Source: Octopus vulgaris
Lineage: Eukaryota
Direction of reading: 5' to 3'
Assembly: GCA_951406725.2 (NCBI GenBank)
Contig: OX597815.1
Span: 119,164,001 to 119,228,000, forward strand
Length of the DNA stretch: 64,000 nucleotides
The position numbers were made by a program, and so were the translations under genes. Below, piece by piece: positions 4,533 to 28,756 of this stretch. Every line of letters starts with the position of its first letter. Position 1 is the first letter of the stretch. The notes beneath the pieces were generated by a model. That model made no database searches and was not told the origin of the DNA. It worked only from the letters and a program-made list of their open reading frames with translations.

Positions 4533-5749
4533 ATATTTTTATACATATGTATATGTTTTTACGTTTTACAAAGCTGTACAGTTGATTGTGTCAGCCCCCA
4601 TACTTACTTCATCTGTGTCAAAACCATTCTTAGTTATAGCATATAACTGAAGAGTCATCAATATTGCCAAATGCCATTGTTGGCATGAAACCATCAGCAA
4701 CATTCTGACTAGTTAAATGTTATAACCTGGAATATCCTGCTAAACAATATGACAGTTTAACCCCCTCAATTTCTCTGTTAGACTATGCTTTTTTTCTGAC
4801 TTATGGACAACTGTTCAATAACTATATCATCATCATCATGTAATATCTGTTTTCCATGCCGGCATGGGTTGGATGGTTTGACAAGAACTGGCAAACTGGA
4901 GAGCTGCACCAGGCTCCAGTTCTTTGTTTTGTCTTGGCTTCTATGATTGGATGCCCTTCTTAATGCTACGTGGCACCAGCACTGGTACTTTTTATGTGGC
5001 ACTGGCATAGGTGTTTTTTCATGGCACAGGTGCTTCTTACATGGCACCAGCATGAGCAGGGTTACCAAGTAACTTGCAAGACAAAGATCTCTTTGTTGAG
5101 AGAGTGAATAGAGCTGAAAGAAGTAGCTGTGTGTCAGGTGGGAGGTTGGAGTATGATAGAGGGACAAAAATAGTTGTCTTACTATATGGAGATATTTAGC
5201 TACCCCAATATATATATATATATTTATTTATTTACAAACGTATAAACACACACACACACACATACACGCGCGCACGCACACACACACGTGCAATCATACA
5301 CACACAAACACACACATGTGCACACACACACACACACATATATACCTTCAATTATATCATATATTTATTTGTTTTATCATTCATTTAAGCAATTATTCTT
5401 TTGAGAATTCACAATTTTTCTTACAAATGGAATCCATTAAGTTTTTACAAATAAATAGCCAAAAAAAAAAAAAAAAGAACATGTGCACAAACAACTCAGA
5501 TTTTTTAAATATCAATAATTCTAACTTTGAGATAAATTGTGAGAATGTATATTTGTATTAAAATAAATGAATAAACAAAGAAACAAAAGTAGATAGACTG
5601 AAATGTCAAACATAATCTTTTCATTAAGTTTCTATATTGTTTTAAATAATTCAAAGTTAACTTTTCATTTAATCTCTCTATCCCCCACTCTCTCTCATAC
5701 ACACACACAACTGCTAATTCCAGCACATTAGTCAACTGACTGTGTATAG

Positions 5750-6029
5750 TAATGGTTCTCAACCATTTTTATTTTACTTATGACCCTTTTTGATTCCTAT
5801 TTTATTCAGGTGGACCCTCATAGCCATTTGATGTTTAAAAAAATTGTTTTATCATCATCAGCATCATTTATATTTTTATAATTAAAAATTATAAGAAATT
5901 GTTCAAAAAAAGAATGCCAAAATATCTTGTCAATCACATAATTATAACCAATTGATTACACGTAAGTTTTAATAACAAGGCCTTATGTGGACCCCCAAGG
6001 ATCATGTAGACCCTGATTAAGAACTACTA
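5750..6029. mobile_element. hAT-like MITE
   Basis: Termini TAATGGTTCTCAAC / GATTAAGAACTACTA; 8-bp TSD GTGTATAG (5742-5749) / GTGTAGAG (6030-6037); same family as 46541-47201 in opposite orientation. Confidence 0.75.
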
Positions 6030-25100: not shown

Positions 25101-26038
25101 TCACATTTTTAATGTCTAATTATCCGTGCTATTTGTTGACAAGTTAGAAATACAGCATTTCTTCGTGTTGTCTCATGCATCATCTGAACTGTAAGATGTA
25201 ATGTTCTAAGAACCACTTTGTCTTTCTTCCCAGTTCTTCATTCTACTACAGGTTCTTTTCACCTCATATCATGGTGCTCTTTCACTTGATATGTGTAAGT
25301 TGTCAGTTCTCTATAAATCTCTTGGTACATTTTATGCCTAATTACTTTTTCAACTCATTTATACTCAGTCTTTCCGTATTAACATTATGTATCTCAATGG
25401 ACTAAACTCAACATATTTTTCGCTCATTGCTGTATATCCTTTGCATTTTGTTACCCACAAAAATACTCATTAGAATTTAAAGAGATTTAAGAAAAGACAG
25501 AGACAGACAGACAAACAAATAGAGAGGGAGAGAGTAGGGGTACCCATTGTTACTGACAGAAATAGTTCTTTTATCCAATATCTAAAGTTATCGCTAGCTT
25601 CACCTCTAGTATAGAATATGTCATTTTGCTAACATAGCTTATCTACTGCAACCAGTGAGTCATCCAAGTAATCTGGATTCTTTATTACATGGCTGCTTAT
25701 GTTGTTATTAATTTCTATGCAACTAAAGTTCTGTTTCCCTGTTAGTCTACCAAATATCCCCCACTGCACATTGTGTGCACTTGCAGTTTGTGCTAAATCT
25801 CAATTTCCTTTCTACTTCTTCGCTGTGTGTTATACAAAGATATATTCATTGTTATCCTCACTCATTTTGATATCAACCCTGGCAATCATTTATTAATTAT
25901 ATCTTAGAAATGCCCTTATTTCTTTTACCTTTTAATTTAGTTTATGTTTAAAGACATTCTATGTTTTTAAGCACATATTTAGTACCACTGGTAACAGATA
26001 GATAAAACTGTATGTTGTTAGTTACACATGTAAATACA

Positions 26039-27227
26039 TGAGGGTTCTATCAAAAATAATACAAGTGTGGGCATAACTTCTTTATTAATTGATATAGGTC
26101 ATTCAAATTGCACATGTTGGTAGAATAACTCTTGTCTTTCTTCATAGTAGGCAAATAATGGGTTCCAAGCAGAAGCAATGTGATGTCGAGTTCTTGAATG
26201 AGAAATATAGGCTGTCCTACATTCACAAATGCTATAGGTTGTTTGTGAAGGTGACACATTCGACAAAAGTAATATTCACAGATGGATGAAGAAGTTTGAA
26301 GAAAGGGAAACCAGCATTGAAGACAAACAAGACAGTGGAAGACCATCAGCTGAGACTACTTTTTTGAATTGAAATGAGTGGACGAGTTGATTTGCATGGT
26401 CAGATGAGTCACAACCCATGAGCTTACTGCACAACCAGACTGTGATCACAATGCATTCCAGAAGGTAGTGGTAGGCATTGGTTATAAGAAAGTGTGTACA
26501 AAGTGAATACCTCAGCAATTGATGCATAATTTGAAGGTGAAAAGGGTGGGATTCCACTCTGATCTACTGGAAGCATTTGATGTCAATGAAGACACATTTT
26601 TTTTTCTGATTTGGTAACAGGAAATGAATCATGGAAATATCTTTATGATTCAGAAACAAAAGCCCAGTCCATGGAATAACATTACACCTCTTCTCCAAGG
26701 CCTAAGAAACCTAAGAGAAGTGATCAACGTAGAAAGTCATGACAACTGTTTTGGGGGGTGATAATGGCATCATTCTACTTGATTTTTTAAAAATATAGCT
26801 GTACAGCAAACAGTGAGTGGTACATCAAGTCACCTAAAGTGCTTAGAGAAACCATTAGGAGAAAGAAACTGAATAAGAATCTAAAATTTATATTCACCAT
26901 GGCAACACATCACCACACATATCTTTGGCAGGCCAACAGCCACCTGTTTGGACCAATGAAGTACAGTCCTAGGGGACAATGTGTTAATGATGCAAGATGA
27001 AAATAGCTGTGGAGAAATGAGTATAAGAGTGCACACCTGAATTTTTTGTTAGAGGATTCAAGGGATGGGTTCAGCAATGATGCAAATGCATCGGTTATAA
27101 TGGAGACTATGTTGCGTTGTAATTTTGTATAGAGGAAGAGTTACTCTATTAAAATTAGCACTTTGAATGATCTTTGTCAGTTAAAAAAGTTATGTCGATT
27201 TTTGCATTATTTTCAGTACAACCCTCA
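26039..27227 (+). mobile_element. Degenerate full-length mariner transposon
   Basis: TIR TGAGGGTTCTATCAAAAATAATACAA versus rc TGAGGGTTGTACTGAAAATAATGCAA; motifs IHRWMKKFEERETSIEDKQDSGRPS, KVCTK*IPQQL, LVTGNESW, HLFGPMK, CKCIGYNGDYV; many stops and frameshifts. Confidence 0.9.
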
Positions 27228-27460
27228 TAGTTTATCATAAAACTACAGTAGTAATTAAATAATATTCTTAAGGCCACAATTTACTCACACGCAGCATCTT
27301 CCAAAGCTTGTCACTAATTCAGTACTTAACCAAATGGAAAACCATTAACATTTTTGAAAGGGACTGCTCCCTAGCTACATTTTTGGTATAAAAAATATTG
27401 AGATTTGGTCCAGTAGAAAAATATTTACACCAAAATTTGTAGCGACATTGTAGGAGAGTA

Positions 27461-27770
27461 AGTTTAGATCTAAATAACATTTTTATTTTAAAAGCAAAAT
27501 ATATTTATCTTAGCTTCAATGATAGAAGAAAGCATGAAGAATTTCATAGTTTTGATCCCATGCAACAAAAATTTCTATCAAAAAAGTTGTGAGGTAAAAA
27601 TATCATGAAAAAAATATAAGTAAGGCAAAAAATTAGATTTAAGTATAATTAACTTTTTTATTTTGAAAACAAACTATATTTTAATTAAACTTTAAAAATA
27701 GAGCTCAATTCGAGGAATTTCCTGGTATCAATCTCATGCAAGGAAGTTTTAAAAGAAAAACATTATGAGC
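27461..27770. repeat. Diverged ~170-bp direct duplication, possibly DNA-transposon subterminal repeats
   Basis: 27461-27593 aligns loosely with 27631-27770 (TTAGAT...TTTTATTTT.AAA.CAAA.TATATTT...GAATTTC...ATC.CATGCAA...T.TGAG). Confidence 0.45.
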
Positions 27771-27955
27771 GTTTGTTTCTCAAATTTCAGAGAGATAATA
27801 TAGTTCTATACTTTTTTATGAATATAGTTCTACAGGACTTTTAATGTGTATCTCCGGCATCATTGAGGTAAGGAAAAAATTATCAACGACACCACTAATT
27901 GACACATTTGACATATTATTAATTAGCATAATAGCATAGCCTGGAAGAAACATGG

Positions 27956-28756
27956 ATTACATGGAAAAATGCAAGCAAGAGAAATAATATTCTGTACTGG
28001 GAAAGTACAAGACAAGTTATTATACTTGGAAAAGTTCAGGATAAGTTATTACATCTAGTAAAATACAGAACAAGGAAATTTTTACGTAAAATATTGCAGC
28101 TAAGGATCAAAATAAATATAAGAGAGTGGTCACTATATTGATCACTCTAGCACCAGTTAATCCAAAAGGTTTCAACCACGAAAAATACATGTTTCCCATG
28201 AAAGCCGGTACGACTGTTAGCTCACACGGACAGGGCAAATAAAAAATAACAAAAATACAGATTATTTTGGGACAATTGTTTCGCTATTAATGAATTAAAT
28301 GTAATATTACTTACAGTAATCCATTTGTAGCTCTGCAGCCAAGACTATCTGGATGAAATCCACTCAATCACACGCCAGATTTTACCATAACGATAAATAC
28401 GCGTGCGGTTCAATTGATTACATCGGACGTTATAATTCGGCGCGCAGCTAAGGATCAAATATTTTAATTGAGTTATTTTATATTTTTGATAGAAGTCACA
28501 AGTAATAACAAATAGAAGTGATAACTTGTAATAACATTTTTAACTTTAATAAAAGCTAATATTTTCTAAATCTAAATATCTTATTTGAAATTTTATCCTT
28601 AGCTGCAATATTTTAAGTATAAATTTTCTTGTTCTGTACTTTAACAGATGTAATAACTTGTCCCGAACTTTTCCAATTGTAATAACTTGTCCTGTACTTT
28701 TCCATATTTATAATCTTAAGAATATTATTTCTCTTGCTTGCATTTTTTCATATAAT
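27956..28756. mobile_element. Foldback-type non-autonomous element with ~155-bp TIRs
   Basis: 27956-28113 is the reverse complement of 28588-28756 (ATGGAAAAATGCAAGCAAGAGAAATAATATTCT...AAAATATTGCAGCTAAGGAT). Confidence 0.8.
28267..28342 (-). ncRNA. Type I hammerhead ribozyme motif (A6C core variant)
   Basis: Minus: TTGG-CTGCAGA-GCTA..long stem II..TAGC-GAA-ACAATTGT-C-CCAA; stem I TTGG/CCAA, palindromic stem III, GUC cleavage triplet. Confidence 0.75.

What the first reader, a model, noticed from the sequence alone, without database searches (positions are those of the whole stretch)
28096..28459. Hammerhead-carrying ~330-bp insert flanked by 16-bp direct repeats, nested in the foldback element
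Seen: GCAGCTAAGGATCAAA occurs at 28096-28111 and 28444-28459, bracketing a CpG-rich segment. Its minus strand folds as a complete type I hammerhead: stem I UUGG/CCAA; core CUGCAGA (C at position 6 instead of A); long stem II (GCUA/UAGC, AAUGGAUUA/UAAUUCAUU, UGUAA/UUACA); GAAA; palindromic stem III ACAAUUGU; GUC triplet with a predicted cut between 28271 and 28270. Inference: either a small retrozyme-like element inserted with a TSD, or a composite in which a DNA transposon carries a ribozyme.
Basis: partly seen in the sequence, partly recalled or inferred. Interest (0 to 1): 0.75.

Follow-up and report, generated by a model that had tools for sequence, protein, structure and literature searches.

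The report
Stump of a young hammerhead retrozyme
This 330-base insert is a real, truncated copy of an abundant non-coding repeat that carries a predicted self-cutting RNA and whose insertions have the layout of Penelope jumping genes, which likely move it; the odd core letter is a rare single-copy change, so this is a new member of a known class.

Summary
Observation confirmed. The 16-bp repeat is a true target-site duplication: both copies share a private base, an empty-site paralogue has one copy, and 0 of 29 host copies carry the insert. The insert is a 5'-truncated piece (330/331 identical) of a 534-bp non-coding tandem repeat with about 2,400 hammerhead matches in this genome. Its stems covary and its core is A6; the exact C6 motif occurs once against 318 A6, so it is most likely a dead-end mutation. 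The family fits metazoan non-LTR retrozymes. Its insertions look Penelope-made: (TA)n targets, 13-16-bp duplications and two fixed 3' ends, A and B. Of 36 inverted insertions, 35 have one A and one B end, none AA or BB, and both arms share array-specific variants. That matches the two reverse-transcription start sites shown in vitro for a Penelope protein. No helper, cleavage or RNA circle is shown. The host is not a simple foldback but a ~1.2-kb element, probably Helentron-related. The retrozyme-Penelope link is already proposed in print, and this scan noted similar elements on other DNA (e1-9582922, e1-9541180).

The parts
28096..28111 (+). Left copy of the 16-bp target-site duplication; its last 4 nt (CAAA) also match the repeat unit (microhomology at the inferred priming site)
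28112..28438 (-). 5'-truncated copy of the 534-bp hammerhead tandem-repeat unit (unit positions about 7-333); its 3' end is the family's fixed end A
   Evidence: 330/331 identical to the unit in L003; family ends
28258..28351 (-). Type I hammerhead: extended stem I, core, long stem II, GAAA, 2-bp palindromic stem III; predicted cut between 28271 and 28270
28335..28335 (-). A6C change in the core, the only difference from the L003 unit
28439..28443 (+). 5 extra nt (GGCGC) at the 5' junction; possibly a micro-inversion copied from unit sequence about 20 nt further upstream (inferred, weak)
   Evidence: one match in the next 100 nt of the unit; shuffle p about 0.03
28444..28459 (+). Right copy of the 16-bp target-site duplication
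27233..28756 (-). Older host repeat, about 1,176 bp without the insert, about 90% identical to its best paralogues; internally deleted variant; probably HINE/DINE-1-like (inferred; strand given on that reading)
27956..28123 (.).
28579..28756 (.). Terminal arm of the host's long inverted repeat
27259..27272 (.). 14-bp subterminal inverted repeat of the host, partner at 28715-28728; a stem-loop lies just outside it (intact in L046, decayed here)
28715..28728 (.). Partner 14-bp subterminal inverted repeat of the host

Best explanation
The insert is a 5'-truncated copy of a young 534-bp non-coding hammerhead tandem repeat (a non-LTR retrozyme) sitting in an older repeat between two copies of a 16-bp target duplication, and it was likely written there by a Penelope-like element's endonuclease and reverse transcriptase. 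Shown: family membership, the duplication, two fixed 3' ends, the one-A-one-B rule in inverted insertions, shared variants across arms, covarying stems. Inferred: arrays are transcribed on the hammerhead strand. The borrowed protein nicks AT-rich DNA on both strands 13-16 bp apart and starts copying inside the RNA at AU-rich site A or B. When both nicks prime, one uses A and the other B on the same template. Here only A primed fully and copying stopped at unit position about 332. The template is either a cleaved and ligated monomer circle copied round and round, or a uniform linear multimer; I put the circle at about 45%. With one hammerhead only and A6C, this copy would not yield a monomer and is likely a dead end.
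For: 40 best genome hits at 99-100% with 534-bp spacing; 2,379 motif matches against 13 for the reversed control. All six frames of the unit carry stops. Empty site L048 and a private C in both 16-mers. Duplications of about 13-15 bp also at L040, L086 and L088. At least one TA-rich flank at 55 of 60 array loci. 35 of 36 inverted loci are A+B, 0 AA, 0 BB; the 24 loci without a BLAST-visible inversion are 14 A and 10 B. Substitutions per kb: 2.1 within an arm, 2.8 between opposite arms, 12.7 between arrays; 25 haplotypes among 34 arrays. Hammerhead pairs: 94.4% paired, 6 of 32 with changes on both sides, 0 of 500 shuffles as high. N7 takes all four bases. Whole-unit fold has 20 of 139 pairs with double-sided changes over 7 copies down to about 70% identity. 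An autonomous 781-codon RT + GIY-YIG family in the same genome obeys the same rule in 3 of 3 inverted copies. In vitro, a Penelope protein nicks and extends both strands and starts at two internal sites that bound the 'tail' (PMC11167929). A6C strongly cut Mg2+-dependent cleavage in two other hammerheads (PMC7151607).
Against: Neither young Penelope family tested shares alignable sequence with the unit, so no helper is identified. The 1,008-codon family showed no inverted arm in 20 long loci. Cleavage, ligation and circles are untested. Some long arrays carry variants that recur in only some units (L267: 4 of 12 full units; L081/L266), which a single monomer circle does not predict. In vitro, hammerhead cleavage was not needed for Penelope insertion and unprocessed RNA was the main substrate. 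The window's own target is not (TA)n and its second end is not B. The tail here (about 130 nt) is much longer than the 30-40 bp described for Penelope elements. The 60 loci were best hits and first-listed hits, mostly on contigs C1-C3, not a random sample. The covariation control ignores relatedness, and one of its five measures was not above shuffles (132 of 500).
Confidence: 0.8

Rival explanations
1. The unit is the end repeat (pseudo-LTR) of an autonomous Penelope-like element, and the insert and arrays are its truncated stumps.
For: Hammerhead, tail, inversions and (TA)n targets are all Penelope traits. Xenopus retrozymes resemble pseudo-LTRs. Earlier scan notes found this outcome for similar-looking inserts in other genomes (unchecked).
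Against: 5' flanks of the first 14 share nothing beyond common repeats. Arrays are exact head-to-tail units, 12 full units in one arm of L267. No similarity to two young Penelope families. Only 60 loci out of several hundred were examined.
Confidence: 0.08
2. Monomers or short partial tandems insert by retrotransposition, and the long arrays grow afterwards in place by unequal crossover, as proposed in the 2026 preprint; no repeated copying of one RNA is needed.
For: Variants recurring in some units of long arrays; stated model in bioRxiv 10.64898/2026.07.22.740005.
Against: Multi-unit arrays with both arms sit inside one short duplication (L040, L086). Both arms are multi-unit and share array-specific variants (L035, L042, L081, L089). 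L270 shows no substitution differences among its 14 listed pieces.
Confidence: 0.1
3. A DNA transposon family carries the ribozyme as a fixed passenger and the two 16-mers are internal repeats.
For: The insert lies inside the host; L063 has two 16-mers 600 bp apart.
Against: 0 of 29 host copies hold the unit; L048 is contiguous across the site; L063's pair belongs to a duplicated left arm. The unit occurs free at 60 loci, and the insert is far younger (99.7%) than the host (about 90%).
Confidence: 0.01
4. C6 is a selected, functional variant (for example manganese-preferring) rather than decay or a sequence error.
For: A natural A6C hammerhead cleaves well in Mn2+ (PMC7151607).
Against: One exact copy against 318. 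Of 85 relaxed matches, only 2 read as A6C in core register on my inspection, in different subfamilies. It may also be an assembly error; this was not testable.
Confidence: 0.01

Closest known systems
Metazoan non-LTR retrozymes (Cervera and de la Pena 2020, PMC7229834; parts 2-4 of 6 read, supplement not read)
   Same: Non-coding tandem repeats with a type I hammerhead per unit, GC under 50%, duplications longer than 4 bp, self-paired predicted RNA, weak palindromic stem III like the axolotl dimer-acting motifs, coexistence with Penelope elements.
   Different: Unit of 534 bp against 150-450 bp; very long stem II; circles and cleavage not shown here. The parts read do not describe fixed two-site ends or inversions.
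Retrozymes as non-autonomous Penelope derivatives (Li, Clavereau, Pollet, bioRxiv 10.64898/2026.07.22.740005; parts 1-3 of 5 read, supplements closed)
   Same: Same proposed helper class; unit length within their 51-972 bp range.
   Different: Their evidence is co-occurrence and pseudo-LTR homology, mainly in vertebrates, and they propose local array growth. 'Inversion', 'tail' and 'initiation' do not occur in their main text. Here no pseudo-LTR homology was found and the evidence is insertion anatomy.
Endonuclease-bearing Penelope-like elements: insertion anatomy (Craig et al. 2021, PMC8557442, passages) and mechanism (Frangieh et al. 2024, PMC11167929, main text read)
   Same: 5' truncation, tandem and inverted copies, tail at one end only, (TA)n bias, two internal start sites, both strands nicked and extended.
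   Different: No coding frame; tail about 130 nt against 30-40 bp; whole-unit tandems. The in vitro work saw no difference in start site between strands, whereas inverted copies here almost always pair one site with the other.
A6C hammerhead variants (Naghdi et al. 2020, PMC7151607, passages)
   Same: Same core change.
   Different: There it is a natural phage variant and an engineered mutant; here it is a single genomic copy in a family that keeps A6.
HINE / DINE-1 non-autonomous Helentrons, for the host (Thomas et al. 2014, PMC4067079, passages)
   Same: Non-coding, 12-15-bp subterminal inverted repeats, stem-loop near one end.
   Different: The 5' subterminal repeat lies 28 nt inside, not 2-4 nt; there is a long (about 170 bp) internal inverted copy of that end; TT target and autonomous partner were not established.

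Membership tests
Type I hammerhead ribozyme | Core CUGANGA / GAAA / UH in order with three stems, stem I open | tested here: met
   Met by family copies; the window copy meets it except A6C
Type I hammerhead ribozyme | Stems kept by compensatory change | tested here: met
   6 of 32 pairs change on both sides (5 in stem I), 0 of 500 shuffles; slid controls 30-40% paired
Type I hammerhead ribozyme | Match to an Rfam hammerhead model | tested here: not met
   No hammerhead hit up to E = 10 for the window or L003; the long stem II may be the reason (inference)
Type I hammerhead ribozyme | Self-cleavage | not testable with these tools
   Needs an in vitro assay
Non-LTR retrozyme | Tandem units of a few hundred bp, each with a type I hammerhead | tested here: met
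   534-bp period; the window holds a partial monomer only
Non-LTR retrozyme | No protein coding | tested here: met
   Stops in all six frames of the doubled unit
Non-LTR retrozyme | GC under 50% and duplications longer than 4 bp | tested here: met
   GC 0.37; 16 bp here, about 13-15 bp at L040, L086, L088
Non-LTR retrozyme | No primer-binding site or polypurine tract | not tested
   No LTR layout seen; PBS and PPT were not searched
Non-LTR retrozyme | Highly self-paired monomer | tested here: met
   Circular fold -150.7 kcal/mol without shuffle control; 20 of 139 consensus pairs with double-sided change
Non-LTR retrozyme | Expressed as linear and circular monomers | not testable with these tools
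   Only assembled contigs of runs of unconfirmed type were available; they cannot show ends, strand or circles
Autonomous Penelope-like element | RT + GIY-YIG frame joined to the repeat | tested here: not met
   0 of 53 array loci scanned
Autonomous Penelope-like element | Sequence similarity to a pseudo-LTR of a resident family | tested here: not met
   Two young families compared, best hits at chance level; other families not compared
Penelope-type integration (works like) | Inverted 5' copy, tail at one end only, (TA)n bias, 5' truncation | tested here: met
   36 of 60 loci inverted, 35 of 36 A+B, 55 of 60 with a TA-rich flank
HINE / DINE-1 (host) | 12-15-bp subterminal inverted repeats | tested here: met
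   14 bp at 27259 and 28715; spacing from the 5' end differs from the paper's
HINE / DINE-1 (host) | Stem-loop near the 3' end | tested here: met
   -11.6 kcal/mol in L046; decayed in the window
HINE / DINE-1 (host) | Insertion into TT | tested here: inconclusive
   Flanks of 10 copies printed; exact boundaries not fixed
HINE / DINE-1 (host) | Autonomous Helentron with the same ends | not tested
   No search made

The most novel reading that the evidence does not exclude
The family is a circular ribozyme RNA that a dimeric Penelope protein copies by priming the two target strands at two different fixed sites (A and B) on one and the same circle, each enzyme running round it several times. The genome would then record, in hundreds of young insertions, both the missing mobilisation step of retrozymes and the origin of the one-sided Penelope tail. 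The 781-codon family would be the first helper to test.
Probability: 0.35. Interest if true: 0.72.

Novelty: new member of a known kind. Interest (0 to 1): 0.45.

Why it matters
The window copy itself is ordinary debris. The family matters because the way retrozymes get back into DNA is stated as unresolved in both papers read. Here a young, non-coding family shows a near-strict two-site end rule and single-haplotype arms, and an intact, young Penelope family with the same rule lives in the same genome. That makes the helper hypothesis and the circle-versus-multimer question directly testable with an existing in vitro assay. I found no paper describing this end rule for retrozymes, or this family, in searches. 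The library lacks most subscription papers, and unread supplements of PMC7229834 and of the 2026 preprint could bear on this.

Tried and rejected
Rfam: no hammerhead hit. RNA evidence: no RNA holder listed. Contigs from 4 runs guessed to be RNA and 4 runs of unknown type cover 28-30 of 30 bins and show the head-to-tail joint, but a tandem in DNA gives the same joint, so this is used neither for expression nor for circles. Helper search: the 1,008-codon family shares only a short AT-rich terminal motif with end B; the 781-codon family shares the end rule but no alignable sequence and showed no hammerhead in a relaxed scan; an older GIY-YIG family was not compared; a fourth query failed on a coordinate slip and was dropped. 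Long frames near arrays (L038, L042, L087) are RT frames separated from the arrays. A variant at the cut site in two units of L033 looked like a ligation scar, but it equals that locus's inversion junction and was set aside as a likely assembly artefact. A pile-up of 5' ends at the cut site was looked at by eye only and is not claimed. Energy of the constrained hammerhead fold included a non-standard pair and was not used. Rows handled by hand in the end tally: L198 (no unit match) dropped; L266 and L268 merged with L081 and L267; L042 and L078 B ends read by eye because BLAST ran into the TA repeat; a stray downstream hit at L090 ignored; L201 is compound (a B+A pair plus an extra A arm, counted as A+B); L199 has one outer end at neither site (counted as the miss); one degraded unit of L031 and pieces under 100 nt were left out of the distances. 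Look-up of earlier scan findings by sequence returned nothing.

Full report
Observation. The two 16-mers, the CpG-rich insert (o/e 1.26 against 0.25) and the minus-strand hammerhead elements are at the stated coordinates. The strand folds better than 200 of 200 shuffles, although the minimum-energy fold does not display stem III. Rfam has no matching model hit.

What the insert is. It is 330/331 identical to part of a 534-bp unit. The 40 best genome hits are 99-100% identical and mostly spaced 534 bp apart. A gapped hammerhead motif gives 2,379 matches against 13 for the control. The unit is closed in all six frames. Older subfamilies at about 95%, 80% and 70% identity keep the core, vary N7 freely and change stems in compensating pairs. 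Contigs from runs labelled as five other organisms also hold the unit in tandem. A6C is the window's only difference from L003; the exact motif occurs once against 318 for A6, and a relaxed search gives one more A6C in another subfamily among 85 matches read by eye. In two other hammerheads A6C greatly lowered cleavage in Mg2+ but not Mn2+ (PMC7151607, passages).

The duplication is real. None of 29 host paralogues holds the unit (one spurious 33-nt hit). L048 runs straight across the site with a single 16-mer, and L050 does so with an 8-bp deletion. Paralogues that have the motif mostly read GGATAAAA; both window copies read GGATCAAA, so the change came before the duplication. The last four bases also match the unit at the junction. 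Duplications of about 13-15 bp bracket insertions at L040, L086 and L088.

The host. Homology to paralogues runs from about 27233 to 28756, so the long inverted repeat has one arm about 720 bp inside the element. It has 14-bp subterminal inverted repeats and a terminal stem-loop, features listed for HINE/DINE-1 elements (PMC4067079, passages). I rate that assignment at about 0.6 because the spacing differs and no partner was sought. At about 90% identity to its best paralogues it is older than the insert.

How the family inserts. Sixty distinct loci were read (best hits and first-listed hits, not a random sample). 55 have at least one TA-rich flank. On the hammerhead strand the 3' ends fall at two fixed sites, A (unit 2-8) and B (unit 408-416, about 130 nt further on); 5' ends vary. 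Of 24 loci with one orientation, 14 end at A and 10 at B; the window copy ends at A. Of 36 inverted loci, 35 have one A and one B end, none has AA or BB, and one (L199) has an end at neither; independent choice would give about 0.5^35 (arithmetic). Units differ by 2.1 substitutions per kb within an arm, 2.8 between opposite arms and 12.7 between arrays, with 25 haplotypes among 34 arrays and array-specific variants fixed on both arms in L035, L042, L081 and L089. Against a single uniform template, some long arrays have variants recurring in a subset of units, which may be exchange after insertion, a mixed multimer or assembly noise.

Mechanism. Inversion, one-sided tail and (TA)n bias are Penelope traits (PMC8557442, passages). 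A purified Penelope protein nicks and extends both strands of AT-rich DNA, starts at two internal RNA sites that bound the tail and is predicted to be a dimer; hammerhead cleavage was not needed in that assay (PMC11167929, main text). I infer the same chemistry here, with the two nicks using A and B on one template. In the consensus fold both sites are unpaired AU-rich stretches. Whether the template is a circle (the retrozyme model, PMC7229834) or a linear multimer is open; about 45% for the circle. The window event is the simple case: priming at A, a stop at about position 332 (three other arms, in L034, L079 and L095, also stop there), five extra bases that may be a micro-inversion (p about 0.03), and a 16-bp duplication.

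Helper. The genome holds two young families with long open frames: 1,008 codons with a minimal hammerhead-like motif (RT match weak, E 0.002) and 781 codons with RT and GIY-YIG. Both insert into (TA)n. The second has two 3' ends about 35 nt apart and pairs them in 3 of 3 inverted copies; the first showed no inverted arm in 20 long loci. Neither aligns with the unit. The labels Penelope-like and Neptune-type for them rest on domain order and recalled motifs, not on a tree.

Comparison and verdict. The family meets the testable features of non-LTR retrozymes except an Rfam match, and works like Penelope in integration, but it is not an autonomous Penelope element. The link between the two is already proposed (bioRxiv parts 1-3 of 5 read, supplements closed). 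The insertion-anatomy evidence was not found in searches. Earlier scan notes report comparable elements on other DNA (read after my reading was formed, unchecked). That the genome is an octopus is a guess from recalled repeats and those notes. New member of a known kind; interest 0.45.

Noticed in passing
L146 (G000:C2:59920500-59930499) and L147-L165: Young, high-copy Penelope-like family: 6.17-kb unit, 1,008-codon frame, partial tandem, fixed 3' end into (TA)n, minimal hammerhead-like motif whose core reads CCGACGA rather than CUGANGA.
   Followed up: partly
L257 (G000:C5:1038000-1047999) and L246-L265: Second young family: 781-codon RT + GIY-YIG frame, two 3' ends about 35 nt apart, inverted copies pair them in 3 of 3; no hammerhead found in a relaxed scan; repeated TGATGACGTC motifs downstream of the frame.
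   Followed up: partly
L032:3000-4500 and 5715-5765: About 1.5 kb of 13-24% GC DNA beside an array, with a 51-bp stretch repeated on the far side of the array; unexplained.
   Followed up: no
L191:1483-1592 (G000:C1:31817787): A solitary hammerhead with the same stem III but no similarity to the 534-bp unit; one search lists further families with this stem III and different stem II.
   Followed up: no
window 26038-27228: Inverted repeats about 1.1 kb apart around what looks like a decayed mariner-type transposase (resemblance recalled, not tested), abutting the host's left end.
   Followed up: no
L079, L082, L084, L200, L207, L210: Several insertions counted as non-inverted stop at or near site B, or show a few bases that could be a very short opposite arm, so the two-site rule may be even more general.
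   Followed up: partly
run X16: One run of another organism laid 676 contig pieces on the unit, with end B followed by TA repeats; its majority alleles largely match the older L081 haplotype.
   Followed up: no
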